DNA of 64,000 nucleotides, from the NCBI GenBank assembly GCA_030765125.1, contig JAVCDD010000180.1, forward strand, positions 7,033 to 71,032, read 5' to 3'. The position numbers were made by a program, and so were the translations under genes. This document shows, one piece after another, positions 21,825 to 56,884 of this stretch. The notes below the pieces were generated by a model. It did no database searches. It was not told the origin of the DNA and saw nothing but the letters and a program-made list of their open reading frames with translations. Origin of the DNA: Candidatus Hatepunaea meridiana (GTDB lineage: Bacteria; Electryoneota; AABM5-125-24; Hatepunaeales; Hatepunaeaceae). Within the stretch, counting starts at the first letter, position 1, and every line of letters begins with the position of its first letter.

Positions 21825-21847
21825 TTGGGGTTTGGGTTTAGCGTGGT

Positions 21848-21918: not shown

Positions 21919-21922
21919 TACT

Positions 21923-23830: not shown

Positions 23831-23857
23831 TATCTTTACTCCTAAGATGGGATTGAT

Positions 23858-23944
23858 AAATAGGGGGACAGTATACCTATTTCATAAATACTCTTTGAAA
23901 TAACGACGGTCAATAAAGAAATAGGTATACTGTCCCCCTATTTC
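23858..23944. repeat. Family A palindromic element, intergenic copy
   Basis: The arms aaatagggggacagtatacctatttc (23858-23883) and gaaataggtatactgtccccctatttc (23918-23944) sit in the 131-bp spacer between the Mrp-NifX stop and the OYE start. Confidence 0.8.
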
Positions 23945-23961
23945 CACTTTGTGGTGAGATA

Positions 23962-30000: not shown

Positions 30001-30409
30001 TGTCAAATTCACCCCTGATTATACTTCGAAATTCAAAGGTTCTGACAAATCTCAATGTTATTTCTTCACCCATATCTTCCTGGCTGCTGAATCCTCGCCA
30101 GCCATATTCGTCTTGAATAAAAGTAATGGAATCGTTTTCTTCTCCCAGAGCGATTAAACTTCCATTTATCCAGAAGCTTTCAACTGTTCTATATCTTATT
30201 TCAACACCGGGATTTATTAAAAGAGTATCACCTGCAGGTAAGAATGTTTCACCAACGATTAGGTAAGGGTTTCCTTCCATATCCCAAACACCCGACACCT
30301 CCCCCTCAACTTCAGTCTGTGCTACCAAAGAAAACGGCAATGCCATTATAAATAAGACAGAGATTCCCCTGAGGAGTGCTTTAATAGAAGTAAGGTTTGA
30401 TTTCTGCAT
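27068..30409 (-). CDS. Secreted parallel beta-helix repeat protein with He_PIG-like Ig domain and T9SS C-terminal sorting domain
   Basis: A 1113-aa ORF with signal peptide MQKSNLTSIKALLRGISVLFIMALPFSLVAQ. It has many N/I-rich beta-helix turns (NNxI, IxxNxI). GLPDWLEI...ITVSGVVPENEQDFTFIIRATDEDEG is He_PIG-like. The CTD, FPYPNPFNTSVTIRY...FYMIKF...RLIYLK, spans 27071-27313. Confidence 0.85.
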   Translation of the reverse strand: MQKSNLTSIKALLRGISVLFIMALPFSLVAQTEVEGEVSGVWDMEGNPYLIVGETFLPAGDTLLINPGVEIRYRTVESFWINGSLIALGEENDSITFIQDEYGWRGFSSQEDMGEEITLRFVRTFEFRSIIRGEFDKITITNSRCNHIRLFDVNEFIVTNNEFSRGGIVIASNNSPDIFEFQDNLIINTQIDFRELRDCIIANNRSPRISVSEIRISGAYNIEIHNNTGLDIRLGILNNSNITIHNNQGGRINLTGGHNIEIFSNKIISIVVNISDNISVYNNSISSIMYCFDSENIQIYRNRVSSSMVIHEVIDSDIINNTIMFRLPESQGEVVRIEDDSEINFTNNILFGNGPTCTGLAVSESNVSASYNCFYNNGTSVEGIELGDKDIEADPLFTGGNPYEVQLRWDSPCINTGNPDINNDPDGTWSDIGAIPFDNRVDPSPVITSYWYAQASRDWDFNYEAIAVDNGDRVDISFIGLPDWLEIERRDDAEDRITVSGVVPENEQDFTFIIRATDEDEGEDTLTVSVDIIDETILGGEISGELTRDHSPYIALDNLIVPEGENLTIFPGVEIIFPYAPYDTMNYISDRIRQNMTVYGDIEFRGNEDSQIIFRGDCPQNQFNAWEGIYIHPGDNPVEINAAMIRNAYTGLDITGRSSVSLSNSSIEYCLSKCLDIDSCTTVSVEGCSLGYCTSGIQIIRFCRNVVITNNSIYGCREMGVYIYSDSIIVADNNIYENGLNFPIPDYCCGLQLNIIRYGLIHHNIITHNRSGMVLNLISNYQVYNNVISYNVLYGISLSPRNDIRTGSIRNNIITNNTVWGVDGSSGNLYEIRNNLISSNGAGDFNLRRFPEGIGELDSLNANEDSCDIYGNVYLPPEFIGFGQNRYGIRSSSPAIDAGMPDDERDPDGSVADIGAYPFDHENHRPMIHILSNGVHNITLEVGLYRNFDAFVSDQDDELLYYHWSWLEEDRVEIYDNALHDSILYWVPGYDTVLYEVTDGNDVVFSQYNIRIVTNNSDKIEDIIIPDEFIVDFPYPNPFNTSVTIRYAVPTSGPVQITVYDLSGRRVSSLVDKHHHPGWYTLTWRPLCLSNGFYMIKFSDSGNSVNKRLIYLK

Positions 30410-31068
30410 GTTAGATTTCTACCTTTCATTATCACCATTGCCAAAGAAAACGAATTACAAATCTTGAGTTATAAAGTGGAAAGAAACAGGTTAAATTACT
30501 TGGTAATATAATATAATGAGGAAAAACGTTAATAGCAAGAGGTCTTAGGAGTGTCGCGTCTACTTAAGATAATCTAAGCAGGTGTAAAACAAGTGGAATG
30601 AAACACTTAAGTTAAGTATGATTAAGTCGTTTAAGATTAACTATTATTCCTTCAAGTAAACTAATCTTCATAATATCCATATCCCAAAAACTCACATTGG
30701 AACAAATATTGCAGCTATTTAACATAGAGGATGAATTGTACATTTATAATTATGTGATTGTTTGAGTATTCTAATCTACTGTCTTTCTGTATTATAACTG
30801 CGCAAGTTCAACCTCACCATCCAACAATAATATATTTACATAATCCGTAGAAAAATGCAATCGTTCAAATACAACGCATAATATGCACACATAATGATTG
30901 CATCACTTGTCAGAATATACGAGCTGAAATAGATTTAAATGAATCAGGATGCATAAAATGCACTGCAAACAAATATGCTCGTTTTTAAGAAACTAATCAT
31001 CCTGGGCACGGAATCATTCGCGCCTGAGGAAACTATATTCATCAATCACATTTAGCAAGGAGGACATC

Positions 31069-34000
31069 ATGCGCTGCATTATGTTACTAATTCTGTCCAC
31101 TCTGCTTTTATCAGCAGCTACCGGAGATATTTACGCCCAGACCAATTGGCTTAAATGGTCACCGGTGGAAGGCGTGCCTGTTCGTCAGGGTAACGAAATC
31201 AAGTGGACCAACAATGGCGCCACCTGCATTGAGGGTGAACGCGCCGGTGAGACCGCAATCGTCTGGGAAGACACCCGCAATGGCTTTCGTAATATCAGCA
31301 TTCAGATCATAGAAGCCGACGGAGAATTCCACTTTCCGGAAGGCGGCGTTAATATCTTCGAGTCGTCAACTATGCGGTATGACCCTGTTATCTGTTCGGG
31401 ACCGGACGGTGACTGGTTTATCGCCTGGATGGACGTCCAAACGGGTCTTCGCCCGGAAATCCGCTGTACGCGAATCAATGCAGACGGTGAACCGCAATGG
31501 GGCGCCGATGAGAACGGCATCAGCCTTGAGAACCGGGAAACATCAGGCTACCAACCGGCAATAATCAGCGATGACAACGGAGGTTGTATTATTCTCTGGT
31601 GGGGTCACGACGAGAACAACAACCGCGAAATATTTGCTATGCATGTTCTTGAAAACGGTGAACCGGACGAGAACTGGGCTGATGGCGGTTTACCCATTCC
31701 GAACCTGCCTGGATACGACTTAAGTTATAATATTGCATCCGATGGAGAAGGCGGGATTATTATTAGTTGGCTGCATTATCTGGAAAACTACACGCCGATT
31801 CTTATGATTCAACGGTTGTCAATCAATGGCGAATTGCTATGGGGTGATGGTGAAGCGGTTCAAATCTGTGACTCACCGTTTAACGGGGAATCTCCTAAGA
31901 TCGTCTCAGACGGAGACGGTGGAGCAATCATTGAATGGATGGATAGTCGTAACGAGGATGACCGAAATACGGACATCTATGTTCAGCGAGTTGACTCAGA
32001 AGGGAATACACTCTGGGAAGATAACGGCTCGCAACTAATATCAACGGAAGACTTCGAATTGGCGCCACAACTCGTTCCCGTTTCACAAGGTGAAGCCATA
32101 TCCGTATGGTATGTCTATAGACAAGAAAATCGAATATTCGATATCTACGCTATGCGTTTCGGCGGCAATGATGAACTTGAGAAGTTCTGGGAGCCTGAGG
32201 AGGGCCTACCTATCGTCGTTGAACAAGACGGTGAACGGGAACGTATTGATATCTTTCAGGATGGTGAAGGAGGCGTATTCATTACTTGGGTTGACGGTCG
32301 CAACGGTGGCTATTCGGGGGAATACGATATCTATGCGCAACGTCTCAATACCGACGGTGAACCATTGTGGGGTGAAAACGGTATACCGGTGAGTACCGCT
32401 GATGGAAAGCAGGATACCCCACTGATAGCGCCTGTTGCCGGTGATGGCTGTCTGGTTGTATGGGCTAACGGTCAATTCTCAGTCGTTAGAAACATCCAGG
32501 CTCAAATATTGGATTCTGAGGGAGAAGCTGTCTGGGATGAAGACAGTCGAGCCATTGTCAACGCCGATCCTGGTAGTGCATATCAGTCTCGACTTGTTAA
32601 AGCCGCGGACGATGTATTCGCAGTGGGATTCATAGAAAATTGCTTTGTTCGCTCGACTGCATTGCCAAAAGTCAAGTTCTACCGTGACCTGGGAAACCGG
32701 GTTGAATGTTTGAACGATGAAGGCAGCATCACAGTAGTTGACAACTCAAACATTGGATTTTCCGAGTTGGAAATAGCTGCAGATGGAGAAGGTGGCGTTA
32801 TTGTTTTCTGGTCTGAATATAGAGAAAACAATCGTTCTGTCTTTGCGCAGCGGATTACACAGGAAGGCGAACGACTCTGGGATAACGACGGCGTTTCTGT
32901 TTTCGAAACCGAAGGAGAAATATTCAATCCCATTATCTGCTCGGATGAGATGGGAGGTGTATTCATTGCCTGCAACTACTTCCGAGTAGATATGCAAGAA
33001 ATTCTCTTACAACATCTTAATGCAGACGGTGAACGACTCTGGGGTAATGAAGATGTTCGTCTTCTCGATGAAAACTCTGATATGCTTATCCAGGGTATCA
33101 TTCCGGACGGTGAAAACGGCGCTGCTGTGCTGTACTCCACTATTAATCGAAGTGAATATGGACTGCATATAAACCGCATCACTGCTAACGGTGAGCCGGT
33201 CTGGGGCAATGGCGATGGTATTGACATCAACTCCTCAGAAGAATTCCGCCAGGATCAATCCAGGATGTTGAAACACCCGGATGGTTACGCTGTTATCTGG
33301 CAACAAAATCGTTGGATTGATAATCATCGCAATACGTGTTTCGACGTCCTGATTCAGTTCGTAGATACGGATGGCAACACACTATGGGATGAAAACGGTA
33401 TTCAAGTTTGTAATCTGGATGCTCAAGCAAATAACCCGTTCGGAGTCGTTGACGAGGATGGCTACATCTGGGTATTATGGTCGGACGACCGACTGGATGA
33501 AGATCGTGCTTATTCGCTTTATCTGCAGAAAATTGATCCACTGTCAGATGAAAATGATGACCCAAGCTTTATGCTGGAAGAAAATGGTCAACAAGTTATT
33601 TCAGCCGAGGGCTCCCAGTATCAAAGCCTCCTCATACCAGATGACGATGGTGGGGTGTGGGCAGCGTGGACGGATAGTCGCAGGCAATATGAAACGGACA
33701 TCTATGCCACTCATCTCGACTCTCAAGGCGAGCGCTGCGAGGGTTGGGCTGATGACGGCAATATAGTTTGCGATGCAATAATGGGACAGTCTTTCCCGAG
33801 GGGTGCTATGTTACGTTCATCCGGTGAAACAGGGATAATCCTGCTTTGGGACGACTGGCGCAGCAGTCGAGACGAGGACGAGGGGGCAGTTTTGAACCTT
33901 TATTGCCAAAGGGTAGACGATCCATCAGAGAATTTTGCTGGTGACGCTGCGTCAACCGCGCCTGTCTCGTTTGAGATAACCGCTCTGTATCCAAATCCAT

Positions 34001-34227
34001 TCAACAGCAACGTTCGGATAGATTACAAGTTAGAAGCAAACCAGCAGGTTTCACTGAAAGTCTTCGATCTGTCAGGTCGGTTAATATTCAGCGCTGACCC
34101 GCAGTTACGCACCATAGGTTCACATTCGTTGACATTGGATGCGGTAAATTGGGCGTCAGGTATCTACATCGCTCAACTGAATGCAGACAAGAAGGTAAGA
34201 ACAAAACGGTTTGTCTGTCTGAAATAG
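31069..34227 (+). CDS. Secreted repeat protein (about 12 units of about 60-65 aa with a DG(E/N)xxW signature) with T9SS C-terminal sorting domain
   Basis: A 1052-aa ORF with Shine-Dalgarno aaggagga at 31057-31064 and signal peptide MRCIMLLILSTLLLSAATGDIYA. Recurrent motifs include ADGEPQWG, INGELLWG, SEGNTLWE, TDGEPLWG, QEGERLWD, ADGERLWG, ANGEPVWG and TDGNTLWD. The CTD, LYPNPFNSNVRIDY...GIYIAQL...RFVCLK, spans 33976-34224. Confidence 0.85.
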   Translation: MRCIMLLILSTLLLSAATGDIYAQTNWLKWSPVEGVPVRQGNEIKWTNNGATCIEGERAGETAIVWEDTRNGFRNISIQIIEADGEFHFPEGGVNIFESSTMRYDPVICSGPDGDWFIAWMDVQTGLRPEIRCTRINADGEPQWGADENGISLENRETSGYQPAIISDDNGGCIILWWGHDENNNREIFAMHVLENGEPDENWADGGLPIPNLPGYDLSYNIASDGEGGIIISWLHYLENYTPILMIQRLSINGELLWGDGEAVQICDSPFNGESPKIVSDGDGGAIIEWMDSRNEDDRNTDIYVQRVDSEGNTLWEDNGSQLISTEDFELAPQLVPVSQGEAISVWYVYRQENRIFDIYAMRFGGNDELEKFWEPEEGLPIVVEQDGERERIDIFQDGEGGVFITWVDGRNGGYSGEYDIYAQRLNTDGEPLWGENGIPVSTADGKQDTPLIAPVAGDGCLVVWANGQFSVVRNIQAQILDSEGEAVWDEDSRAIVNADPGSAYQSRLVKAADDVFAVGFIENCFVRSTALPKVKFYRDLGNRVECLNDEGSITVVDNSNIGFSELEIAADGEGGVIVFWSEYRENNRSVFAQRITQEGERLWDNDGVSVFETEGEIFNPIICSDEMGGVFIACNYFRVDMQEILLQHLNADGERLWGNEDVRLLDENSDMLIQGIIPDGENGAAVLYSTINRSEYGLHINRITANGEPVWGNGDGIDINSSEEFRQDQSRMLKHPDGYAVIWQQNRWIDNHRNTCFDVLIQFVDTDGNTLWDENGIQVCNLDAQANNPFGVVDEDGYIWVLWSDDRLDEDRAYSLYLQKIDPLSDENDDPSFMLEENGQQVISAEGSQYQSLLIPDDDGGVWAAWTDSRRQYETDIYATHLDSQGERCEGWADDGNIVCDAIMGQSFPRGAMLRSSGETGIILLWDDWRSSRDEDEGAVLNLYCQRVDDPSENFAGDAASTAPVSFEITALYPNPFNSNVRIDYKLEANQQVSLKVFDLSGRLIFSADPQLRTIGSHSLTLDAVNWASGIYIAQLNADKKVRTKRFVCLK

Positions 34228-34242
34228 TATAACCGCCAAATC

Positions 34243-34377
34243 GGGGATAGTATGCCTGTTTTCTGTAAACTTTCTGTCATGGCACCGTCCCTGCCAGCAA
34301 CGTTTACGACAATTCTATCAACCGTGGCAGGTTGACAGCAGTAAAAGCTATCTTTAGAAAAACAGTTATACTGTCCC
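34243..34377. repeat. Composite family A element with a nested GTCAACC..GGTTGAC hairpin
   Basis: The outer arms are ggggatagtatgcctgttttct (34243-34264) and agaaaaacagttatactgtccc (34356-34377). The inner atcaaccgtggcaggttgacagc resembles gtcaaccgcggcgggttgacagc at 50860-50882. Confidence 0.6.
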
Positions 34378-34383
34378 ATTTAT

Positions 34384-34425
34384 TTACTTGTAGTCGGGTT
34401 TGTGAACAAACCCGACTACAAGTAA
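34384..34425. terminator. Perfect 19-bp stem / 4-nt loop hairpin downstream of the 1052-aa gene
   Basis: ttacttgtagtcgggtttg-tgaa-caaacccgactacaagtaa. There is no clean U-tract, so it may be REP-like (it contains GTAG...CTAC) rather than a canonical terminator. Confidence 0.4.
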
Positions 34426-34616
34426 TGATGCTTTTTCCCTCACTCAAGCGCTATAATTTTTAGATGACATAACCTGAAACGATCTCACCGATCATTTTAC
34501 CATCCCAGTTCACCTCAATAACTCCTCCGACTTCGAAATTGAAGTTGAAATATTTCCAATTAGCTGAACATCATTAATGATTCTGTTGATTAAGTCAACA
34601 ATTTCAGAATTACCCT

Positions 34617-34714
34617 CCCATTTTGTCATTCCCGCGAAGGCGGGAATCCAGAGTTTTCAAGTATTTAACAAACACCATCTGGATTCCCGGCCTTCGCGGG
34701 AATGACAAAATGGG
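34617..34714. mobile_element. 98-bp MITE-like element with about 36-bp terminal inverted repeats, each containing an ATTCCCGC-GAAG-GCGGGAAT hairpin
   Basis: The arms are cccattttgtcattcccgcgaaggcgggaatccaga (34617-34652) and tctggattcccggccttcgcgggaatgacaaaatggg (34678-34714). Confidence 0.7.
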
Positions 34715-34848
34715 AAGTATTTCAACAGGATCATTAATATAAGAGATTAAATATTTGGAATTGGGACATAACTCCTCTTGAAAGTGAAATGGATTTTACT
34801 ATATTAGGATAACTAATTCACATTTCCAAACACAAAAGGAGTTACAAA

Positions 34849-35202
34849 ATGGCGAAAAAACACATAGCCATCTTTTACTGCAAGCGCATTCAAGACCACA
34901 CCTGCATAGCTTGTGCTAAATGTTTCAAAGCTGCCCCCTTGAAAAACGGGAAATTCTCACAATACGATGAAGAAATCGAGATAGTGGCAATGACGGATTG
35001 CGGTGATTGTCCAGGGCTGTTAATGCCTCGAGTTCCGATGATCAGGACTCTGGGAGGACATGTGGACGCTGTTCACCTGGGCACCTGTGTCACTCAGGCA
35101 AAGGAACACGGTGAATGTCCGCTTGATCTTGAAGAAATGAAAGTGAAACTTGAAAAGAAATTGGGGATTCCTGTGATTATCGGGACGCATGATTATGTTT
35201 GA
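34849..35202 (+). CDS. Small Cys-rich protein, probable CGGC-domain (PF08821-type) metal-binding protein
   Basis: A 117-aa ORF with Shine-Dalgarno aaggag at 36-41 of 348xx (34836-34841), 7 nt before the ATG. Cys motifs are CIACAKC, DCGDCPG and LGTC...HGECP. The family assignment is from memory of the CGGC pattern. Confidence 0.5.
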   Translation: MAKKHIAIFYCKRIQDHTCIACAKCFKAAPLKNGKFSQYDEEIEIVAMTDCGDCPGLLMPRVPMIRTLGGHVDAVHLGTCVTQAKEHGECPLDLEEMKVKLEKKLGIPVIIGTHDYV

Positions 35203-35251
35203 TTCACCTCACAGGCAGGGTCGCCTGCGGCTCCTGTATTTCGGCTAACAT

Positions 35252-35372
35252 TGTCGGACAAGAGTGTCCAACCTACTAAAACATCGGTAGGATAGGCATT
35301 CCTGTCTGTCGTACACCTCTTAATTATAGGCATCGTTTGACAGACAAGAATGTCTGTCCTACCCTTCGTGTG
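35252..35372. repeat. REP cluster: one type-2 REP plus an inverted pair of type-1 REPs (REPIN/BIME-like), all with GTAG heads
   Basis: 35252-35276 is tgtcggacaagagtgtccaacctac, the reverse complement of GTAGGTTGGACACTCTTGTCCGACA. 35287-35310 is GTAGGATAGGCATTCCTGTCTGTC. 35349-35372 is gacagacaagaatgtctgtcctac, an inverted copy. Confidence 0.75.
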
Positions 35373-35512
35373 ATTGCTTAAACAAATGGCGGGCAATCCA
35401 CCACCCTCCATCCAGAAGTTTTCGCAGGCAGGGACGTCTACTCTACTGGTGAGGGCACTTGACAGCACAGATGACTTACTATCTAAAGCCAAACGCCCAA
35501 AGCTCAAAGACT

Positions 35513-35553
35513 AAAACAAAAGCCCGTCCGGTTAATACCGGACGGGCTTTTGG
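35513..35553. terminator. Bidirectional rho-independent terminator candidate
   Basis: The hairpin agcccgtccgg-ttaata-ccggacgggct (35521-35548) is flanked by aaaacaaa on one side and ttttggg on the other. Confidence 0.65.
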
Positions 35554-35591
35554 GTTTAATTAATATTGTTGCTTCAGGTGTTAACACCTTT

Positions 35592-35633
35592 GTTTATGTT
35601 GCGTCAGGTGTTAACACCTGACGCAACATAAAC
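35592..35633. terminator. Perfect 42-nt palindrome immediately downstream of the 4817-aa gene stop
   Basis: gtttatgttgcgtcaggtgtt|aacacctgacgcaacataaac. Its 14-nt centre is duplicated at 35576-35589 (aggtgttaacacct). Confidence 0.5.
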
Positions 35634-35640
35634 GCAGTGA

Positions 35641-38600
35641 TTACTTCACCAGCATTACCTTGCGTACGGACTTGAAGTTGGCAGCTTCCATCCGGACAAT
35701 GTAGATACCGGAGGTCATACCAGCTCCATCCCAGACCGCAGTGTAACGACCCGCTTTGAGTTCGTTGTTTATCAGAGTCGTAACCAGACGACCTGTCACA
35801 TCGAACACATTGATCGTAACTTTTGCAGCCTCAGGTAAGCCGTAGTTAATGCGTGTAACCGCATTAAATGGGTTAGGATAGTTCTGAGACAGACTGTACT
35901 CATCCGGTATGCCTGCATCAACCCTGACATCTATTATCGTCAAGGCGTTGGTGAGGTAAACAAGTCCCTTACCAGATTTGATGCTTGCTTTCAGGTTCAC
36001 TTCAGTCTCGTTGGCGTTATTCCACATGCGTAAGGTGAATGCTTCATCTTCCTGCAGACCGTCAACGACGTTTTTAGTGTGTTCAGAATCACCCCAGATA
36101 GGTAATCCACACATTTCGTCGGAAATTGTGCCGACACCTATTAGTTTACCGGAAGCGTCAAAGGCGGCAATCTGATCGCCGTCCTCAACAGGTGTTCCGA
36201 TAATCGAAGTTACCAGTACACTCATGTTGACATCGGTCTTTACAGGGGAAGCCCAGTGGCTGCCAGCTTCGCTTGCAGACATCAGAGCCGCGCCTTGGTC
36301 TTCATCCTCCGGATATAGTAATTCGACATCTTCGTCAACGTTGATCTGGTAACCTTGACCAGGTGTCCACGGTTCCATATTCGAGAAGCCATATGAAGGT
36401 ACCATGAAGCCACCTGGTCCATCTTTGGCAATGATAACATTGTCAACAATAGATGACACAACGTGGAAACCGCTACCGCGTGAAGCTTCCAGATCATAGG
36501 TTGGATAGTAGGCAACTATATTCCAACCTGCATCAACACCTGCAACCACAGTCTGTGGATGGATCGGAACGCCTAACCAAGAGGCTTCGAGTTCTTCGTT
36601 AACGTTCATCAGGTAACCTTCAGCGGTGTTCCAGAAGTCAATACCGTAAAAATCCCAATCCGGGACACAGAAATCACCAGCTTCGTCCTTCATAATAACT
36701 ACGTGGTGGTTATCATCCTCATCCTTGTACTGTTCGAGCATTAGCTCAACATCCGGACCATCATCATCATCGAGATTTTCCCAGTAATCAGCAATTGGAA
36801 TGATGTTCAATGAGATCATGTTCCAGCCTTCGAGATGAAGAATGGTCTGCTCGCGAAGTTGGTAGGCTGTTACACAAGTTACTATCGTTTCACCGTTGTT
36901 AACCCAGACACGCGGACCAGCATTATCTTCTATTTCAGCAGTGGCAAGAAGTTCTTCGTCAGCATCCGGGTCCCAGGCACGATAGTTAATATTATCGCCG
37001 TTTTCGAATCCTTCGACATCATCAGCCGCACCATAAGCGATTAACACAGAGCCTTCGCCACGCCAAACAACACCGCCGGCAAGGACGTCATCGTCAGTGT
37101 ATGCAGCGATTTCCCAACCGTTGGGAACAGGTTCTTCGTCAAATGCGACATCTAAAATGCTCAGATAGTGCATCAGGTTGGTCGTTTCGAATTCAGCGAA
37201 GTGCTGTATACGAGCGCCAAGCTGAAGTTCGACGTCAAAGACTATTTCTGCATTTTCAGGATCGTTAGTAAGGATAGTAACGGTAGCATGATAATCAATC
37301 CAGTCTTCAAGGTCTGCAGGATCAAATGTAAGTATTATCTCTGTCGATTCACCGGCATGTACATCACCTTCATCCGGTTCGGCAGTAACCCAGGTTGAAA
37401 CGTTTGCAAGGTGATCAAGATACCAGATGACAGCTTCGCCTGTTCTTCCCCAATGATAATTAGCTGGGACATTATGCAGATAGCCGTCAACCGTAGTAGA
37501 TACGAGGCAGAAGCCGCGACCGTATTGATAAGTCAGGATGATTGGCTCATTTGTAGGATTACCCATCGCCATTATTTGCACCCATTCGACGTTATCCATA
37601 TTGTCAATGTCCCTCTGGAGAAATACACCATGTGCGCATCCACCGCCGACCAGTCTCTGTCCTTCACCCCATTCCCAGTTAAAGGGATCGTTCTCGTTCA
37701 TATAATTGATGAGGAAGTTCTCTTCAGGGTCCAACTGGAGCGGACACTGATTCTGAGATTGACTACCATTATATACGAGACCACCAGGATTTGTCGGTCT
37801 GGTATTATGATTATTTGTCCCGGAACTGTGATAGAGGGCTCCGCCACCATCAACGAATTCCTCTATACGTTCAAGGTTCTGGTTATATTGAGCTACCCAC
37901 GCATCCGCCTCGTAGTTCCCGATCCACATAAAGTCGTACTCTGTGAAATCAACGTCCTGCACTTGATTCCAGGTGCGATAGCGATCATAATCCAGATCAT
38001 CTATCGCTTGGAAATATCGTTCGAAGTCCCAGTTCGACCAGCCGCAGCGCTCTGCAATCAGAATGCCTCGTCCTTCCGGCTGATCGCGGCGAGGTCCGAT
38101 TGCGCGTTTAGTTGAACGCAGGGAGCGAACAGCGTCATCGCGTTCCTCTTCCTCGATATCTTCGATCTCGATCTCAAAATGCAGGTCACGTCTTTCACCT
38201 TCTTCGTTGGCAAGTACGATGATTTCCTCAACAGGATCGTCACCCATTAGCATCTGAACGATGATTTCGGTTGGGTTATCCGGATCTGTTTCAGGATCGG
38301 TTGATGCGATCGGGGCTAATTCACCTACACCGATCAAATCCCACCAGATTCGGTCATCGTCACCAATATCCTGGTTTTCAGCGTCGGAAAAGATGCTGAA
38401 CGTCGCTTCACGTACTCCAGTCTGACTGGGACTGAAGGTTAATGTGAATGCGAGTTCCTGTTCAGGATCCAGGACCGCCTGGTCATCTATATCCGTGCTG
38501 TAATCGTCGGCAGCATCCCCAGTAAATTCGACACCGTCAATTATAAGATCTGTCGAACCGCAGTTCACGACTGTAATACTTATTTCGGAATCGCCATTTA

Positions 38601-41600
38601 CGTAGGTGTCTTCGAATTCAATATCCTGCGCATTTTCAAACGGTTGCGCTATCGGTTCATATTCCTCATCCCATATAGGAACACCGATAACATCCGCAAT
38701 GACGTTTACAACAAACTCGTCGTTTTCAGGATCGTTGGTAATGAAGATTATATCTGCTTCGTAAGTAAATTCGATCAAACCTTCAGTGTTAAGGGTTACG
38801 AAGACGTCCATATCAGCACCGGGGTCGATGCCACTATCATTTGGACGATCGGGATCCCATGGTGAAGTATCAGGATCAAGTGTGATCCATTTCGCGCCAC
38901 CCATCTCGGTCAGGTATAACAGGAGTTCTGATGCGATAGAGCCCCACTCACCACCGTTACGAGCATAATTGAACCAGCAGTGACCTGTCGAGTGACCGAC
39001 GGTCAGAACAGTACCCTTACCGAAGCCGTAAGCGACAGCGCCAGGTACGTCCTGATTCTGCTTAGTGGCAATAACCTGATACCATTCGAGAGTGCCGTCA
39101 TCTACCTTTTGAACGAACTGGTTTTCAAGGTAACCGGAATGCAGCCATGAGCCGCCTTCAATGAGTTCGCCCTCTTCCCAGTAGTTCGGTTCGGATCTGT
39201 GACAGATCTCGGCAAACAGACTGTAATTGTCATCATTCGGGTCAGGGCTGACAACCAATGTGCCGTTACTGGTTCCTCCGGCTGAATTGTTGACAATATC
39301 GCCGGGACCATGCATGGGGCTGTTGGCGTCAGCAGTTTCATAGTAACATGCGCCACCGTCCGCAACATACTCTTCCAGCCGCTCAAAGTTGTTCTGGTAA
39401 TTCTGGCTGTTCATTGTACTGCGAGCAGCTATTACGATGACGTCATAATCTTCGAATTCAACGTTATCCCAGTCGGCGGCTTGACGATAGGAATGATAGT
39501 TATCGTTGTTCAGGAGCGGATCCCTACGCATACCATCGTCCACCCAGCCCCATGTGGTGCTGGTCTGGAAGGCGGCAAACAACAGTCCGTCGAGTTCGTC
39601 ATCTTCGAGTGGGTCGCGACGCGCCCCAACCGAACCGACTGCATTCAGAGTACGAGCGTTGTTATCACGCTCAGGCTCGCTAATGATTTCGATCTCGGTT
39701 TCGAAATGGAGTTGAGCGCCGTCGTCCCCGGCTTCGTTGGCGACATTCAGGTTATGGATTTCTTCCTGACCGTTGGGAACCTCGGTATCAATCGACTGAG
39801 GTGCGACGGAGAACATTGGCGGTGAAAACGCTTGAGCTACTAAACTCACTGCATATTCCGCGTCGTCTTCGTCGTTATTGAATATAATCAGATCCGGGGT
39901 GAACTCACCGGTTTCACCAGGCATAAAGGTTAAGGTGACAACCTCTTCCTCTCCCGGACCGATTACGAAATCAGCATGATCAACCTCAAAGAATTCATGA
40001 TCAATCTCGCAACCTTCTATTTCAAGATCTTCGGTGCCGACGTTTTGAACGACTATTTCAAGGTCGTAATCGCCGTCAGCATATAATATTTCAGGCCAGA
40101 AGTGATCCTCTGATTCACTATAAGCTGCATTCCAGTCAACGATGCCATGATCGTCCGGATCATCCGGAATGTAGCCCCATTCTTCGGGCCAGATAACATT
40201 GATACCGGGAGCTCCAGATACGTGAATAAGGATATTTACAACTGCATCCTGATTAGCCGGATCGTTGCTTAAGAAATGGAGATTGACTTCGTATTCACCA
40301 CTATATAGACCGAATGTATTAATTGTGATGAATATATCCATTTCTTCATCAGCTCCAAGTCCATCTTCCGGGGATTCCTTTGGATCATACGAGAACCATC
40401 TGACTTCATCAACACCGTCATCGTAAACACGGATGTTTGCCTGCTGGTAGCCACTGCACCAGATATACTCACCGTCATGACCAACCGCACAATAAGGCTG
40501 ACCATTGTTGACTTGGAAGCTTACTACATCGTCTACCTCAACGCATGTCCAATCATCCCTGTCAACGCCAATCTGGTATACGTTGTTTTGGGCGGCATCA
40601 GTCATCCAGAGAGGAGCATCGACATGCGCCGGTACCCACTCAAGGGCAAAAGTAACGACATTGCCGTGGAATGCCTGATGATTGGCAATCACACCGATTT
40701 CCTCACCCACATCGAGACCGTCCACCTCATAGACGTGGATGGAATTAGGAGCGGCATTTTGCATTACGAATATAAGGCTTTCCTCAACGTCAGCCGCGAG
40801 ACCGTAAGCGACGAACGGGAAATTATGAGTTCCAACCAACTGACCATCGCCGTCATATCGACGTACCTGTGCATTTGACCAGTTACCTATCCATAGGTGA
40901 CCGTTAAGCCAGCATCCGTCCATGCAGCTACCGCCTGTGGCGATGCTAATTTCTTCATTGAAATTCTCATAATTAGCGTCATGGGAATAAGCCGCGGCAC
41001 GTTGATTATTGTAGTTAGACACCCACATGCGCTCGTTATCCCAGTCCCAACCAACGCAGGAGCTGTAATGGTTCACGACATTAATACCGTTGAACTGGGC
41101 AATCAGGTCGCCCGGCTCGTCGCGACGCGGACCGGTAGCGCTCCTGGTGCTGCGCAGAGTGCGTGAAGCATTATCACGCTCTTCTTCAGGACCTTCCTGA
41201 ATCATTTCAGCTTCAGTAGTGAAGTGAAGGTCTGCTCTACCTATGTTGGCAACGTTAATAGTCAGCTCTTCCTCGTCGCCGGTGTCCATTTCACGTTCAA
41301 TCTCTCCAGGATCAAGGGAGATCATGGGTGGATCTTGACAGTCTGCGCTTAAATCGAATATGAACTCTTCCAGATCCGGGTCGTTTGTGGATAAGGTAAC
41401 GGTTCCGATGTATTCACCCGCTTCTTCAGCCATGAAGCTGACGGTAATTATACCCTCTTGCGCAGCGATGATGGCGTTATCATCAACGAAGTCTGCAGGA
41501 TCAACGAAGAAGACTTCCACGTCGCCTTCGGTGTCCACGATGATTTCGTCAATAATCAGATCGTCCGTACCTACGTTAATGATAGTTACCGGAATCTGAT

Positions 41601-44600
41601 AGCGGTCATCAGCGCCGCCGTTGAACAGGTTCGGGTTGAATTCTACGTTGAAGTCAACTACACTGTTGGGAATATCATCAGGATCAAAGCCCGGACCCCA
41701 CTCTATAGCGAAGTCAGGAACACCTGTAACGTCAAGATTGACCGTTACGGTTACATTACGATGAGCAGGATCATTGGTTGTGAAGTACATTTCAGCAACG
41801 TACATACCACCAATCAAGCCATCAGCATTGAGGAGGACAATGATTTCCTCTATGTCATCCGCTTCAACTGTGCCTTCTTTGACCATTTCTTCTTCGCCTA
41901 CTCCGTAATCCAGCCATCTGACTTCGGAGACGCCGTCGTCGTAACAATAGAGCCTCGAGTCAGCATGACACGACACGTAGAGGTTTTCACCATCATGTGC
42001 GATCACTGCGTACTCGTTGTTGCTCCTCGTCGGGAAGTTGACGACCGCCTGGTTGCCCACGAACTCAAAATTATCGGTGTCAATATCGATCTGCCAGGCA
42101 CGGTCGCGGGTGTTAACCCACAGCTCGCCGTCCGGGTGCAACGCCACGAATTCAATGGAGCGGAACAGCTGGTTGTTCACAAAGGGCTGGATGTTGCCGA
42201 TTTGACCAATCCGTTCCCCTTCGAGGTTGAAGACACTCAGGTTGAATGGAGCGCCTGAACCCTCGACCGCGTAAATTAATCCTTCTTCCTGGTCTGTGGC
42301 AACGCCGTTGATGCCGCGGTGCCCCTGCAATGCAAGAGCGCCGAGGTTGTTACCCTCGATATCATAGCGGTTCAACGTGGGCACCCACAAATACATTATA
42401 TAGATCACTCCGTCGTAGTATGCCAGATCCATCGGGTTAAGTCCGGTGTTGAATCGTACCATTTCCTCACCATCCGAGGGATCAATGGCAGCCATCAGGT
42501 ACGGATTATTGTACTGCTGGAACCAGAACCACTCGTTGTCCGGGTCATAGCAGCCGTTTTTGTATTGATTGGCGGGAATCGGATGGTTGAAATCGAGGTC
42601 TTCGAGTCTATCACCGGGATTGTCACGGCGAGGACTGGTAACACTCTTTGTACTGCGCAGGGTGCGCGAGGCGTTGTCACGTTCCTCTTCATCACCCGGT
42701 TGGCGGATGATTTCGGCTTCAAGCCGCCATCTCAGCAAAGCGTCACCGGCATTGTAGATCTCCATAGCATGCTCTGCTTGCTCACCCGTAACGAGATCAT
42801 CGTTGATGACAGCGTCTTCATTATCGATATCAATTTGATCACCGTCAACCGAGAGCTCAAAGACCGGTGGAAGCGAGGCTTCTGCGTGCAGATTTACTAT
42901 GAGTTCATCCTCATCGGGATCGTTAGAGATGAATACCAACTCTGCTTCAAAATCATTCGGGTCGTCCACGTCGGCGTCAAAGGTAATCGTAACTACTACA
43001 TCCTCACCATCTTCCCATTCCAGAAAAGCCTCCTGTGGTTCAACGCTGAAGTAATCGTGATCACAGAAGATGTCTTCAACGTCGAGGTCAGCGGTTCCAA
43101 GGTTGGCAAGTATAACCGTCATTTCATAAGGACCGCCTGTAAACAGGTCCTCATACATTAGATTCCAGTCGACGACAGACTCATTGTTCTGATCCTCTAT
43201 CGGATCAATATAACCGTAGGCTTCATCCCATGTAACTTCAATGTCCGGAGCGCCGGTAACGTGTAACAACACGTTAACCGCTTCATCAGGACTTGCGGGA
43301 TCGTTGGAAAGGAAGTGTATATCAGCTTCCCAATCACCTTCAATCAAGCCGGCGGCGTCAAGGAATACGGTAACTGTCATCTCGTCGTCGCCTTCAACAG
43401 CGCCTTCGGCGGGATCAACGGAGACCCATCGCGTCCAGGCGCCTGCAGGACCGCAGCCGATGGCGCGACCCTCAACTATATAGTCTTGACCCTGTCCATA
43501 GTTGACCATACTGAAGCCGTACATGTTGTTATCAATGAAGGCACCGTTAATGCCGGTATGACTGGCTTGCCACCAACGAGGTATGTCATTTATACGATCA
43601 CCATACTGGAATGTGATCATTCCAGCATCATTCAGGATAATCTGGAAACAACCGCCGATACCACCACGAGAATTCCAATTGTGGTAAGTAATGACCATCA
43701 AATCTCTCTCGTTGGTCCATGTATATAATGGTCCACCGCCACCGGAACCGTGCCAGTCACCGTTTAGAATGGCGAGGGTATAGAACCACCCCGCTTGATT
43801 CTGCGGGAACGGACGAGGTGTGTTGATGCTTTGTGCCGAGCGGACGAATCCCGCCCAGCCATCAGTATCGATAAAGATCCGGTTGAAGTTCTCTACGTAG
43901 AACGGGAAGTCCCAACCAAGTTCGACAGCGCCAGTAATCGCATCATCACCCATAACGAACTCACGAACGCCTTCGAACTCCCGGATATCGATCCATTCAT
44001 ACTCAGGACCGTCATCCTCAAGATTATCACGCCACTCGTAGCCCATATCATCGGGGCCACCGCGACGGTCGCGACGGGGACCATCAGCGCGACGGGTGCT
44101 TCGCAGGGTGCGCGAGGCATTATCACGATCGTCGCCAGGCTCTACAATGATTTCAATATCAGTAGTGAATCGCAGCTCTGCATCGCCACTATTTTCAACA
44201 ACTAAGTCATGCTCTTCGAAGCCACCGGTGAAGAGATCGGTCTCGATTGAACCGGGAACGATACGGATAATCGGGGGCAACTCACAGATAACATGCATAG
44301 GAAGTTCAAAGTTTTCCTCATCCGGATCGTCACAGACGAAGGTCATTACTTCCTCATATTCACCCGGATCATCTGCTTCAGCTTCAAATGTTATGGTTAA
44401 ATTAGCGCTTGCGTCCGGTTCGAGAAGCATATCACCCTGATCAACGGTGAAGTATTCGTTATCACAGAAGATATCCTCGATGTCAAGGTCGGCAGTTCCT
44501 TCGTTGGAAACTTGGACGACCATTGTATAGGGACCGCCAGCGAAGACGTCTTCATAAGCAGGATTCCAGTTGAGAACATCGGGATAACCGAAGTCTTCAG

Positions 44601-47600
44601 ACCATTCGACTTCGATGTCCGACGCGGCGGTGAGATGAAGCTGGATATTTATCACCACTCCTTCTTCCTCATTGGGATCGTTGGAAAGGAAGGTCAGATC
44701 AGCTTCGTAATCACCCTCAGCTAAACCAGCGCCGTCAAGTGTAACGGTAACGATCATTGCATCGTCACCTGCAACGGTTCCTTCGACAGGATCGTACGCC
44801 AGCCAGTTTGTTTCAGCGATACCGTCATCGACGATCTGGAATTCCTGTACGACCCGGACGCCGAGCCAGAGGTTTTCACCGTCATGACCGGGGTCACTCC
44901 ACTGGTCGTTGCCGTTATTCCAGGCGGTGTTCTGGACTACTTCAACAAACGACCAATCATCTGTGTCAATCGAGACCTCCATAAGGCGGCTCTGAGTATT
45001 TATCCAGAGCTGACCGTCGGGATGCTCGTCAACCCAGCAGATGCCGCGGCTGAACTGGTTAACAAGAGGACCCTGTCGCCAGTTGATCGTGGCGACACGT
45101 TCCACATTATCGTTAACCGGTCTGACTACGTGCATTCCCCAGGCGCCTGTGCCTTCTATAGCGATAAGCACACCGTTCTCGGGGGAAGCAGCCAGGGCTG
45201 TAACCGAATTGAAGCCCATTGGCAGGTTGCCAAGGTTTTCTCCCTCAGCGTCATGCCTGCCGACAAAGGCGCCCGACCAGGCGACATTGTAGACAACGCC
45301 GTCCATCCAGGCAATGTCCATCACGTTTTGACCCTGGGGTTGATAGGCAATTTCCTCAGTGAAGTTTTCGTAATCACCGTCCCATGATATTGCGGCGATC
45401 CAGTTTGGACTGTAAGTAGCTACCCACATCCATTCGTTGTCAGTGTCGAAATTGGAAGAGTGCTTGTAACCGGCAGCTCCACGAGCCCACCTGTAGGTTG
45501 CTATCACGTCCATGAAATCATCACGACGCGGTCCTTCGGCATTCCTTGTGCTGCGCAGTGAGCGAGCGTTTGCATCGCGATCCGGTTCTGCGACAATCTC
45601 ATGCTCGACAGTGAAGCGCAGATCGGCTTCGCCTTCGTTGGCTACCGTTAGTTCAACATCGACAAGACCACCGGTATACAGATCTTCTTCGATAGAACCG
45701 GGATTAATAGCAATTTCCGGAGGCACGCCTGCATCAGCCAGCAGCGCTATTTCAAAATCCTCTTCATTTGGATCGTTCCAGACGATTACCATCGCCTCTT
45801 CAAACGCATCCCCGCTTGAAGCATCGAACGTAAATGTAAATTCATCGCTCTCGCCGGGTTCTAATGAAGCATCCACCGGATCTGATGTGAAGAGATCGTT
45901 TTCACAGTAGATATCTTCAATTTCCAGATCGTCTGTGCCTGTGTTTTCGATTTCAACGAGAACATCATACGTTTGGTCAACGAAAAGATTAAGATAAGCG
46001 AGATTCCAATCTATTACCGCTACTTCCGGATCTTCATCCCAGCCAATATCCGCAGACCATGTAGCTCCAAGCGCAGGCGCTCCGGTTACGTGCATTATTA
46101 TGTTAAATACTAATTCTTCATTGTCGGGATCGTTGGTAGTGAAAGTCATATCAGCTTCATAGTCACCAGTGAATAAACCTGAGCAATCAAGCGTAACGGT
46201 AACTTCTGCCTGATCGTCAGCTTCAATGGTTCCTTCATCCGGTTCATAAGCGAGCCACTTTGCGCCACCCATCTCGGTCAGGTATAACAGGATTTCAGAG
46301 GCCATGGAGCCCCACTCACCACCGTTACGAGCGTAATTGAACCAGCAGTGACCTGTCGGGTGACCGACGGTCAGAACAGTACCCTTACCGAAGCCGTAAG
46401 CGACAGCGCCAGGTACGTCCTGATTCTGCTTAGTGGCAATAACCTGGTACCATTCAAGAGTGCCGTCCTCTACCTTTTGAACGAACTGGTTTTCAAGGTA
46501 ACCGGAATGCAGCCATGAGCCGCCTTCAATGATTTCGCCCTCTTCCCAGTAGTTCGGTTCGGATCTGTGACAGATCTCGGCAAACAGACTGTAGTTGTCA
46601 TCATTCGGGTCAGGGCTGACAACCAATGTGCCGTTACTGGTTCCTCCGGCTGAATTGTTGACAATATCTCCGGGACCATGCATGGGGCTGTTGGCGTCAG
46701 CAGTTTCATAGTAACATGCGCCACCACCGTCAACATACTCTTCCAATCTTTCAAAGTTGTTCTGGTAATTCTGGCTGTTCATTGAACTGCGAGCAGCTAC
46801 TACGATGACATCATACTCGCTGAAGTCAACATTGTCCCAGTCGCCTGCTTGACGATAGGAATGATAGTTGTCGTTGTTCAGGAGCGGATCCTGACGCATA
46901 CCATCGTCCACCCAGCCCCATGTGCTGTTGATCTGGAAGGCGGCAAACAACAATCCGTCGAGTTCGTTATCTTCGAGTGGGTCACGACGGGGACCATCAG
47001 CGCGACGTGCTGTACTGCGCAGGGTGCGCGAGGCATTATCGCGATCGTCATCACCCGGTTCAGCGATGATCTCAGACGCAATACTCCAATTCAGATCCGC
47101 TCCACCGGTGTTGGAAAGTGTCAACACGTGTTCTTCAATGTCGCCGGTGAAGTAATCTTCCTCAACTGAACCGGGAGCTAACTCAAATGCAGGAGGTGTG
47201 AATGCCTGCGCAACAAGATTTATTTCAATATCCGCAGGCTCATCAGCCGGATCATTCCAAACGATTACCATAACCGCTTCGTGTTGATCCGTATCCTCGG
47301 AATTGAAGATAAAGTTAACTTCAAGGCTCGAATGTCCAATAATCACTGCATCGGCAGGATCACAGGTGAAGCGTTGGTTCTCACAGGTGATACTTTCTAT
47401 TTCGGTGTCGTCTGTTCCCGGATTAATCAATTCGATTGTGACGGGGTAGTCGTGCCCTGCATAAAGTTCTTCATGAGCGGCGTTAAAATCGACTACAGAA
47501 TCACCATTATCCGGATCGAAGCCGTGATCCTCAGACCATGCAACCTCAAGGGCAGGCACGCCTGTTACGTGCATTATAACACTAATTACGACTTCATCAT

Positions 47601-56562: not shown

Positions 56563-56567
56563 TGTTT

Positions 56568-56599
56568 GTGGTGTCGTGGTGTCGTGGTGTTGTGGTGTC
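56568..56599. repeat. Octanucleotide tandem repeat (GTGGTGTY)4 just after the 1830-aa gene stop
   Basis: Units are gtggtgtc (56568-56575), gtggtgtc (56576-56583), gtggtgtt (56584-56591) and gtggtgtc (56592-56599). Confidence 0.85.
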
Positions 56600-56610
56600 G
56601 GGATTTAAGG

Positions 56611-56660
56611 GTAGGACAGACATTCCTATCTGTCGGTAGGTTGGACACTCCTGTCCGACA
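56611..56660 (+). repeat. Two tandem REPs with GTAG heads (type 1 then type 2)
   Basis: GTAGGACAGACATTCCTATCTGTC (56611-56634) is followed by GTAGGTTGGACACTCCTGTCCGACA (56636-56660). Confidence 0.8.
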
Positions 56661-56884
56661 ATCATCGTGTCAGACAATCCCGAAGTTTCGGGATGACCTA
56701 CTGGAAAGTTTTAATCAAGATGGACACTTTTTAGAAACCAGCAGGCGTTTTGCTTGCTGGTTTTTTTATTAGCTTCTGTTTTATCTGATAAAAATGTCTT
56801 CGCAACTCTGTTTAATTCTTGGTAAGCAGGAGTTTTTTATATTATATTATAGAAACAGACGTTCAAGAACAACCGGAGAATAAA

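What the first reader, a model, noticed from the sequence alone, without database searches (positions are those of the whole stretch)
38885..46993. Two payload-C modules 7368 bp apart are about 98% identical in their core, indicating gene conversion or very recent duplication
38885-39625 and 46253-46993 align without gaps. I count about 8 differences in the central ~440 nt, while their flanks and all other paralogous modules in the gene are far more diverged. A third copy, at about 37400-38080, is only distantly similar.

A sharp identity plateau inside older repeats is the signature of a conversion tract. It also provides a substrate for a 7.4-kb in-frame deletion.
Basis: seen in the sequence. 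Interest (0 to 1): 0.55.

Follow-up and report, generated by a model that had tools for sequence, protein, structure and literature searches.

The report
Domain-limited gene conversion in giant surface protein

Summary
Window 38884-39624 and 46252-46992 align without gaps at 93.7% nt identity. The core, 38941-39357, has 8 differences in 417 nt (98.1%). Identity falls to about 50%, with saturated synonymous sites, within 1-2 codons of both edges.

Both copies lie in one minus-strand gene (35641-50094, 4,817 aa). It has a signal peptide, a T9SS sorting tail, and nine modules of about 490 aa, each an Ig-like scaffold plus an inserted "payload".

The plateau is exactly the payload of modules 3 and 8. 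This payload is an unannotated domain with a glutamine-amidotransferase-like fold. The plateau runs from the conserved GPRRD linker motif to the terminal Trp.

Relatives from Calditrichota-type genomes show that the two copies are each other's closest relatives. Module 8's positional ortholog in the closest complete homologue carries a payload that has diverged.

Payload-only plateaus with the same edges occur independently in at least three other genomes.

The best reading is repeated, domain-limited intragenic gene conversion with a module-3-type donor. A 7.4-kb block duplication is excluded. An assembly artefact cannot be excluded without reads, but it is unlikely.

The predicted deletion is in frame and mechanistically plausible, but no deletion allele was found.

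This is a new example of a known kind of event, of modest interest.

The parts
35641..50094 (-). Giant modular gene (4,817 aa). N-terminal signal peptide, nine super-repeats of about 490 aa (HYDIN/ASH/DUF1573-type Ig-like scaffold plus inserted payload; payload order X,B,C,B,X,B,B,C,C'), and a C-terminal T9SS sorting domain.
   Evidence: ORF list; Pfam; chunked self-BLASTP giving module and payload classes; linker positions.
46252..46992 (-). Payload-C copy of module 3 (aa 1035-1281), the inferred donor type. High identity to the module-8 copy begins at codon R1036 (window 46989) and ends at codon 1281 (window 46252).
   Evidence: L001 is its positional ortholog: the downstream context (C, scaffold, B payload) scores 655 vs 221 for module 8.
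38884..39624 (-). Payload-C copy of module 8 (aa 3491-3737), the inferred acceptor. It is 92% aa and 93.7% nt identical to the module-3 copy.
   Evidence: The scaffold after it best matches the L004 scaffold after L004's second C copy (107 vs 54 bits), yet the payload groups with the module-3/L001/L004-copy-1 clade.
38941..39357 (-). Core of the plateau in module 8 (partner 46309-46725 in module 3): 417 nt, 8 differences (98.1%), dS about 0.05. Most recently homogenised segment.
   Evidence: Scan statistic with 0/300 permutations reaching the observed value; third-position differences 6/139 in the core vs 20/108 in the shoulders; dS windows.
46309..46725 (-). Core of the plateau in module 3 (partner of 38941-39357).
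   Evidence: Same as above.
38992..39078 (.). Longest perfectly identical run between the copies (87 nt; partner 46360-46446). Further runs are 74, 64, 60 and 56 nt. These are potential crossover substrates for a 7368-nt in-frame deletion or duplication.
39358..39465 (-). Left (N-terminal) shoulder in module 8 (partner 46726-46833, aa 1088-1123). Identity is 88% and differences are clustered. Quartet site patterns conflict here: some patches have C8 = L001 and others have C3 = L001.
   Evidence: Polarised differences; quartet patterns of 35 vs 6 vs 6, with the conflicting sites concentrated here.
46981..46995 (-). GPRRD linker motif of module 3 (GGT CCC CGT CGT GAC). The 5' edge of the tract falls between the P and the first R codon. 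All nine modules carry GGN CCN CGY CGY GAY here, preceded by E-R-D-N-A-x-R-T-L-R-S-T.
39613..39627 (-). Degenerate linker motif of module 8 (G-A-R-R-D; GGG GCG CGT CGC GAC). The 5' edge of the tract lies in this copy.
37387..38094 (-). Third, distant payload-C-family copy (module 9, C', aa 4001-4236), 27-31% aa identical to the other two.
   Evidence: tblastn; HMM domains; alignment A1.
35653..35880 (-). T9SS C-terminal sorting domain (Por_Secre_tail, aa 4739-4814).
   Evidence: Pfam E = 2.5e-9.

Best explanation
The two segments are the payload domains of modules 3 and 8 of one giant T9SS-secreted modular surface protein. The payload is about 246 codons and has a class-I glutamine-amidotransferase-like fold. 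The two payloads have been homogenised by non-reciprocal intragenic recombination (ectopic gene conversion) confined to the payload.

Inferred history:
1. The ancestral gene already had C-type payloads at both positions, and they had diverged, as in the homologue L004.
2. In the window's lineage, after it split from the L001 lineage, a module-3-type sequence overwrote the whole payload of module 8. This left shoulders now at 88-91% nt identity.
3. One or more later conversions re-homogenised the central 417 nt, now 98% identical with dS about 0.05.

Why the edges are sharp: the neighbouring scaffolds share only about 50% nt identity, so heteroduplex cannot extend into them. In addition, only exchanges that keep the domain intact are likely to survive selection. 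The 5' edge sits on a 9-12-nt microhomology (CGY CGY GAY of the GPRRD linker) that is present in every module.

Shown directly: the identity and dS profile, the edges, the tree, and the recurrence in other genomes.
Inferred: the direction of transfer, the number of events, and the molecular route.
For: 1. Divergence profile: dS is 0-0.09 in most core windows and 0.14-0.58 in the shoulders, against near-saturated pS (mostly 0.7-0.9) in both flanks. The change happens within 1-2 codons.
2. Two tiers: the core/shoulder difference is significant (0/300 permutations, Fisher p = 2e-8).
3. Tree: in an NJ tree of 43 payload-C copies, (C3,C8) are sisters, then L001, then L004 copy 1. L004 copy 2 lies outside this clade.
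4. Positional orthology: the scaffold between C8 and C9 best matches the L004 scaffold between its second C and C' (107 vs 54 bits). L001's flank is of module-3 type (655 vs 221).
5. No residual affinity: C8 is no closer to L004 copy 2 than C3 is, in any segment.
6. Recurrence: payload-only plateaus with flanks at about 50% occur in L014 (= P0006, 93% aa vs 30-40% in the flanks), L011 (= P0009, 87% vs 31-42%), the VGIO contigs L005/L006/L013 (92-96%) and L007. In L011 and L014 the edges fall at the same GPRRD and terminal-Trp positions.
7. Within-genome similarity: the most similar payload pairs overall are almost all within-genome pairs.
8. Mosaicism: conflicting quartet patterns are concentrated in one shoulder.
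Against: - No reads or independent assembly of the tract were available. The only other assembly of this strain (L023, 100% identical over 5.5 kb) stops 18 nt before the gene's 3' end.
- Orthology of module 8 with L004's second C module rests on a 35%-identical scaffold and on shared architecture. L004 has one module fewer between its C copies.
- Conversion between payloads as diverged as L004's two copies (about 55% aa) is hard for RecA-type recombination. The first event may therefore have been an illegitimate or microhomology-mediated cassette replacement rather than classical conversion.
- The case for several events rests on one significant rate contrast and 12 conflicting sites.
Confidence: 0.7

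Rival explanations
1. A single domain-cassette replacement or insertion copied the payload of module 3 once into module 8. The route would be illegitimate or microhomology-mediated recombination at the GPRRD linker and at the domain end. The two-tier pattern then reflects uneven mutation or selection, not further conversions.
For: The edges are precise to the codon and coincide with domain boundaries in three genomes. The 5' edge lies on a short motif shared by all modules. Classical homologous conversion across payloads only about 55% identical would be difficult (the L004 copies).
Against: Third-position divergence differs about fourfold between core and shoulders (6/139 vs 20/108), which selection on protein sequence does not explain. 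Differences are clumped (8 in 25 nt, 11 in 37 nt) and carry conflicting phylogenetic signal. This fits several exchanges better.
Confidence: 0.18
2. Assembly artefact: the assembler collapsed or copy-pasted part of one repeat onto the other, and the real copies are more diverged.
For: Repeat-rich giant genes fragment in short-read assemblies. L023 breaks at the gene's end. The VGIO copies lie at contig ends. No reads could be checked.
Against: The copies differ at 47 sites spread across the tract, and the longest identical run is 87 nt. That is shorter than common read lengths and final k-mers (inference), so each copy is individually resolvable. The same payload-only plateaus with the same edges occur in independent MAG assemblies from other studies. 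Both copies are in frame, without gaps, and join their unique flanks at domain boundaries.
Confidence: 0.07
3. Recent duplication of a whole module or of the 7.4-kb five-module block, followed by ordinary divergence.
For: The spacing is an exact multiple of three and spans five modules.
Against: The scaffolds directly next to both copies are 37-57% nt identical with near-saturated synonymous sites. No other module pair at this offset, or at any other, is similar at the DNA level.
Confidence: 0.02
4. Strong purifying selection on an essential domain keeps the two old copies similar.
For: The payload is more conserved than the scaffold between genomes: 75-79% aa for C3 vs L004 copy 1 and L001, against about 35-45% for scaffolds.
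Against: Selection on protein sequence does not hold synonymous sites. Core dS is about 0.05, while orthologous payloads (L001) are only 74-76% nt identical.
Confidence: 0.02

Closest known systems
Porphyromonas gingivalis HagA / RgpA / Kgp adhesin (CAD, DUF2436) repeats
   Same: These are T9SS-sorted surface polyproteins built from repeated domain cassettes. [quoted passage not shown] In the window, C25 (gingipain-family) peptidase genes lie next to the giant gene.
   Different: The phylum differs (Calditrichota-type MAGs vs Bacteroidota), and so do the domain families (GATase1-like payload and HYDIN/ASH Ig-like scaffolds vs CAD/DUF2436). In hagA whole contiguous units are repeated. Here only the payload is homogenised, across 7.4 kb of diverged scaffold. 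No strain series is available here.
Concerted evolution of tandem repeats in Gram-positive surface proteins (e.g. group B streptococcal alpha C/Rib, staphylococcal Aap/SasG); own knowledge, not tested here
   Same: Near-identical DNA repeats sit inside a surface-protein gene, maintained by intragenic recombination, and they provide substrates for in-frame deletion or expansion.
   Different: Those repeats are contiguous and homogenised as whole units. Here two non-adjacent copies of one inserted domain are homogenised, while the repeated scaffold around them is not.
Class-I glutamine-amidotransferase-like fold proteins (STM3548 2gk3, STM1381 3soz, ThuA-like 4jqs, GH42 beta-galactosidase trimerisation domain)
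   Same: The AlphaFold model of payload C (pLDDT 92.4) matches these folds by Foldseek (best E = 3e-6, TM about 0.5). A PDB profile search gave weak hits on the same segment to ThiJ/PfpI, ThuA-like and 2gk3.
   Different: Sequence identity is 10-14%. There is no Pfam match. No Cys nucleophile is conserved across the family. The domain is embedded as a module in giant secreted proteins, not in a cytoplasmic enzyme.

Membership tests
Ectopic (intragenic) gene-conversion tract | Local block of high identity between paralogous segments with an abrupt fall to background on both sides | tested here: met
   93.7% over 741 nt against about 50% in the flanks, with the change within 1-2 codons.
Ectopic (intragenic) gene-conversion tract | Synonymous divergence is low inside the block and high outside, so the cause is recency and not constraint | tested here: met
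   dS is 0-0.09 in most core windows and 0.14-0.58 in the shoulders. Flank pS is mostly 0.7-0.9, near saturation.
Ectopic (intragenic) gene-conversion tract | Phylogenetic discordance: paralogs group within the genome, while flanks or positions are orthologous across genomes | tested here: met
   Tree; scaffold orthology of module 8 with L004's second C module; L001 flank of module-3 type. The orthology evidence is moderate (35% aa scaffolds).
Ectopic (intragenic) gene-conversion tract | Donor and acceptor states seen directly in a population or in reads | not testable with these tools
   There are no reads. The giant protein is not on record, and no close relative was found in the metagenome contigs.
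Recent segmental or whole-module duplication | Collinear high identity across the whole duplicated unit, scaffolds included | tested here: not met
   Flanking scaffolds are saturated, and there is no other similar pair in the gene.
T9SS cargo protein | C-terminal sorting domain (Por_Secre_tail) plus an N-terminal signal peptide | tested here: met
   PF18962 at aa 4739-4814, E = 2.5e-9. The N-terminus MKGTSIRFLLAICLAFAGYLWLAPAAYA was read directly. T9SS machinery genes could not be checked, because they are not in the window.
Class-I glutamine amidotransferase (enzyme) | GATase1-like alpha/beta fold | tested here: met
   Foldseek hits to 2gk3, 3soz, 4jqs, GH42 domains and the ADC-synthase GATase domain.
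Class-I glutamine amidotransferase (enzyme) | Conserved Cys-His-Glu catalytic triad | tested here: not met
   In the 43-sequence alignment the invariant or near-invariant residues are G, P, R, D, N, W and Y only. No Cys is conserved.
Diversity-generating retroelement target (VR/TR pair) | Differences confined to adenine positions of the template copy; a reverse transcriptase nearby | tested here: not met
   Adenine is the C3 base at 13 of 47 differing sites and the C8 base at 11 of 47, with 26 transitions and 21 transversions. No reverse-transcriptase domain appeared among the window proteins scanned.

The most novel reading that the evidence does not exclude
Payload domains in this family of giant Calditrichota T9SS proteins might be exchanged as precise cassettes by a dedicated or strongly favoured mechanism. 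The mechanism would use the universally conserved linker (ERDNAxRTLRST..GPRRD, with a conserved CGY CGY GAY core) as a recombination junction. That would amount to programmed domain shuffling that re-equips an Ig-like stalk with different payloads. The same Arg-rich linker might also serve as a processing site for the adjacent C25 peptidases, releasing the payloads from a polyprotein.
Probability: 0.1. Interest if true: 0.65.

Novelty: new member of a known kind. Interest (0 to 1): 0.33.

Why it matters
- It is a clean, quantifiable case of concerted evolution acting on a single inserted domain, not on whole repeats, in a little-studied phylum. The same domain-precise edges recur in several genomes.
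- It shows that giant modular T9SS proteins of Calditrichota evolve by exchange at the level of cassettes.
- It identifies a widespread domain with no Pfam family that has a GATase1-like fold. At least 254 representative proteins match the search profile, which also covered some upstream scaffold.
- It flags these loci as prone to copy-number change and to assembly fragmentation.
- It does not reveal a new mechanism.

Tried and rejected
- Self-BLASTP of the whole protein returned only the trivial hit. Chunked queries replaced it.
- Pfam on the payload gave nothing.
- The first AlphaFold run, with 6 sequences, was poor (pLDDT 56). The 43-sequence alignment fixed this.
- The afdb50 fold library was unavailable.
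- The exact giant protein is not on record, and neither are two neighbouring proteins.
- The metagenome-contig scan for close relatives found none, so no deletion allele or strain variant could be examined.
- L023, the only other assembly of this strain, stops before the gene.
- A DGR explanation was rejected because there is no adenine bias.
- Block duplication and purifying selection were rejected on the synonymous-site profile.
- Rfam and tRNA scans of the window were empty.
- A runs-type reading of the 12 conflicting quartet sites is suggestive only, because there are too few sites for a formal recombination test.
Full report
**1. Observation**

In codon register (38884-39624 vs 46252-46992) there are 47/741 differences, or 93.7% identity. 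Eight differences fall between 38939 and 39357.

A two-rate scan places the low-divergence interval at 38941-39357. It is 417 nt long and 1.9% divergent, against 12.0% for the rest of the tract. None of 300 permutations reached the observed likelihood ratio, and Fisher p = 2e-8. The longest identical runs are 87, 74, 64, 60 and 56 nt.

No other pair of segments in the gene is comparable. The next best are 77% over 152 nt and 89% over a 70-nt linker.

**2. What the sequence is**

Both copies lie in one minus-strand ORF, 35641-50094, encoding 4,817 aa. The protein has a Sec-type signal peptide, many HYDIN/ASH/DUF1573-type Ig-like domains, and a C-terminal T9SS sorting domain.

Chunked self-comparison shows nine super-repeats of about 490 aa. 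Each has a scaffold that is 30-60% aa identical between modules, plus an inserted payload of one of three kinds. The payload order is X,B,C,B,X,B,B,C,C'.

Every payload is preceded by the linker E-R-D-N-A-x-R-T-L-R-S-T...G-P-R-R-D.

The finding's two segments are the C payloads of module 3 (aa 1035-1281) and module 8 (aa 3491-3737). The distant third copy is module 9 (aa 4001-4236, window 37387-38094), at 27-31% aa identity.

The neighbourhood is an island of T9SS cargo genes. It includes two C25 peptidases, a beta-helix protein and another CTD protein. A second giant modular ORF runs off the left end of the window.

**3. Plateau anatomy**

I made a gapped codon alignment of modules 3 and 8.

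| Region | nt identity | aa identity | Synonymous divergence |
|---|---|---|---|
| Flanks | 37-57% (one window 67%) | 15-55% | pS 0.5-0.95, mostly 0.7-0.9 (near saturation) |
| Shoulders of the tract | 83-93% | 80-90% | dS 0.14-0.58 |
| Core of the tract | 95-100% | 95-100% | dS 0-0.09 in most windows |

The switch is precise to the codon. Identity begins at the first Arg codon of GPRRD (window 46989 / 39621). It ends at the codon after the terminal Trp (46252 / 38884). The tract is therefore exactly the payload domain.

Third-position differences are 6/139 in the core and 20/108 in the shoulders. The two tiers are therefore not an effect of protein-level constraint.

**4. What payload C is**

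- Pfam finds nothing.
- The word-indexed protein search found three homologues.
- The profile search found 254 representative proteins, 72 of them at E < 1e-30. Many are 2,000-5,400-aa giants with several copies. The profile also covered some upstream scaffold, so some weaker hits may reflect the scaffold.

With a 43-sequence alignment AlphaFold gives a confident model (pLDDT 92.4, pTM 0.92). Foldseek against the PDB matches STM3548 (2gk3, E = 3e-6), STM1381, a ThuA-like protein, GH42 trimerisation domains and GATase domains, with TM about 0.5. This is a class-I glutamine-amidotransferase-like fold.

No Cys is conserved across the family, so the domain is probably not an amidotransferase. Its function, whether binding or some other activity, remains inferred.

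**5. Relatives and phylogeny**

A scan of reference genomes returned 19 loci, all from uncultured-bacterium MAGs, and every one with a taxonomic label is Calditrichaeota. Together with the ENA and NCBI contigs L001-L003 they hold 43 payload-C-family copies.

L004 encodes a complete homologous giant (4,239 aa; payload order X,X,C,B,B,B,C,C').

In the NJ tree, C3 and C8 are sisters, followed by L001 and then L004 copy 1. L004 copy 2 lies outside that clade.

Positional evidence:
- The scaffold between C8 and C9 best matches the L004 scaffold between its second C and C' (107 vs 54 bits).
- L001's downstream context is that of module 3 (score 655 vs 221).

So module 8 sits where the homologue carries a diverged C payload, yet its own payload is of module-3 type. 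C8 shows no residual affinity to L004 copy 2 in any segment.

This is the discordance expected from non-reciprocal overwriting of module 8 by a module-3-type sequence, after the split from the L001 lineage. L001 is only 74-76% nt identical to either copy.

**6. Recurrence**

The most similar payload pairs in the whole data set are almost all within-genome pairs. Payload-only plateaus with flanks at about 50% occur in several places:

- L014 (the same gene as P0006): 93% aa in the payload vs 30-40% in the flanks.
- L011 (the same gene as P0009): 87% vs 31-42%.
- The VGIO contigs L005, L006 and L013: 92-96%.
- L007, more weakly.

L004's two copies show no plateau. In L011 and L014 the plateau again starts at GPRRD and ends at the terminal Trp. 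Domain-limited homogenisation is therefore a property of this protein family. It is not a peculiarity of this assembly.

**7. One event or several**

The 47 differences are clumped (8 in 25 nt, 11 in 37 nt). With L001 and L004 copy 1 as references, 35 informative sites support (C3,C8). Six support (C3,L001) and six support (C8,L001). Seven of these 12 conflicting sites lie within aa 1088-1123.

One patch (aa 1115-1123) has C8 = L001 at 7 of 8 sites. Another patch (aa 1090-1093) has C3 = L001, while C8 carries the state seen in more distant copies.

Together with the significant contrast between core and shoulders, this favours an older whole-domain replacement followed by at least one later conversion of the core. 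The number of sites is small, however.

**8. Mechanism**

Shown:
- The two segments share recent ancestry, and this is restricted to the payload.
- The edges are sharp and fall at domain boundaries.
- The divergence has two tiers.
- The pattern recurs in other genomes.

Inferred:
- RecA-type conversion operates within the island of homology. The flanks, at about 50% identity, block heteroduplex extension.
- Selection removes exchanges that break the domain.
- The first replacement may have needed microhomology, for example the CGY CGY GAY core of the linker present in all modules.

**9. Alternatives**

- Block or module duplication, and purifying selection, are refuted by the synonymous-site profile.
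- A DGR is rejected because there is no adenine bias.
- An assembly artefact cannot be excluded without reads. Against it, the copies differ at 47 dispersed sites with no identical run longer than 87 nt. Independent assemblies of other genomes also show the same pattern.
- The only other assembly of this strain (L023, 100% identical to window 30115-35623) ends 18 nt before the gene.

**10. Deletion substrate**

The spacing of 7368 nt equals 2456 codons. Identical runs of 56-87 nt exceed the minimal lengths generally needed for homologous recombination in bacteria (own knowledge). An in-frame loss of five modules is therefore plausible. Homologues do differ in module number.

No such allele was seen. 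The copies have coexisted long enough to accumulate a core dS of about 0.05.

**11. Comparison with known systems**

The closest documented analogue is the P. gingivalis hagA/rgpA/kgp adhesin system. There, T9SS polyproteins have identical repeats within and between genes, combinatorial modularity, gene conversion and variable repeat number (PMC5266723).

The present case differs in phylum and in domain families. It also differs in that only an inserted payload is homogenised, not the repeated unit as a whole.

**12. Verdict**

The gene-conversion interpretation is supported and refined. This is a new member of a known kind of phenomenon, with modest interest (0.33).

Noticed in passing
window 3-19862 (-): A second giant modular ORF (at least 6,620 aa) runs off the left end of the window. 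It has a signal peptide, a beta-helix-like N-terminus, many HYDIN/ASH/DUF1573 Ig-like domains and LVIVD beta-propeller repeats, and no payload C. It has its own internal DNA repeats, up to 87% identity over 300 nt (13326-13625 vs 15768-16067).
   Followed up: partly
window 35641-50094 (-), aa 80, 540, 1035, 1522, 2006, 2488, 2989, 3491, 4001: Every payload, whatever its type, is preceded by the conserved linker E-R-D-N-A-x-R-T-L-R-S-T...G-P-R-R-D. Two C25 (gingipain-family) peptidases with T9SS tails lie immediately next to the gene (51070-56562 and 56819-62233, +). The Arg-rich linkers might be processing sites of a polyprotein. This is speculative.
   Followed up: no
window 46980-47049 vs 44067-44133: The linkers of modules 3 and 5 are 88.6% identical over 70 nt although their payloads differ (C vs X). 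Short linker segments may also be exchanged between modules independently of the payload.
   Followed up: no
window 27068-34227 and 51070-62233: The giant gene sits in an island of T9SS cargo genes: a beta-helix/NosD-like protein (27068-30409, -), a 1,052-aa CTD protein (31069-34227, +) and two C25 peptidases of about 1,800 aa with CarboxypepD_reg domains.
   Followed up: partly
L023 (ENA ERZ27315452, k141_485372), equal to window 30115-35623: A MEGAHIT contig from a public ENA sample is 100% identical to the window over 5,509 nt and ends 18 nt before the giant gene's 3' end. The same strain is therefore present in that sample, and short-read assembly breaks at the gene.
   Followed up: partly
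L001 (ENA ERZ27252236), whole contig: The closest relative of the payload (76% nt) sits on a 1.8-kb contig. The sequence at the contig ends looks adapter-like (recognised from memory, not checked), and there is a frameshift near nt 730-750. It is a low-quality fragment, used only as an outgroup.
   Followed up: no
L005, L006, L013 (VGIO01 MAG): Three payload-C copies that are 92-96% identical lie on three different contigs, and two of them touch a contig end. Near-identical payloads appear to have fragmented that assembly.
   Followed up: no
window 20784-25176 (-): Between the two giant genes lie ordinary metabolic genes: a radical-SAM/SPASM protein, an OYE-type NADH:flavin oxidoreductase fused to a pyridine-nucleotide-disulphide reductase domain, and an Mrp/NBP35-type ATPase fused to a Nitro_FeMo-Co domain.
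   Followed up: partly
P0005 and P0006 (homologous giants): By eye, X-type payloads (motif ...RDRRxxPDDxxYEWRDN...) also occur as near-identical copies within single proteins. Payload-limited homogenisation may therefore not be restricted to payload C.
   Followed up: no
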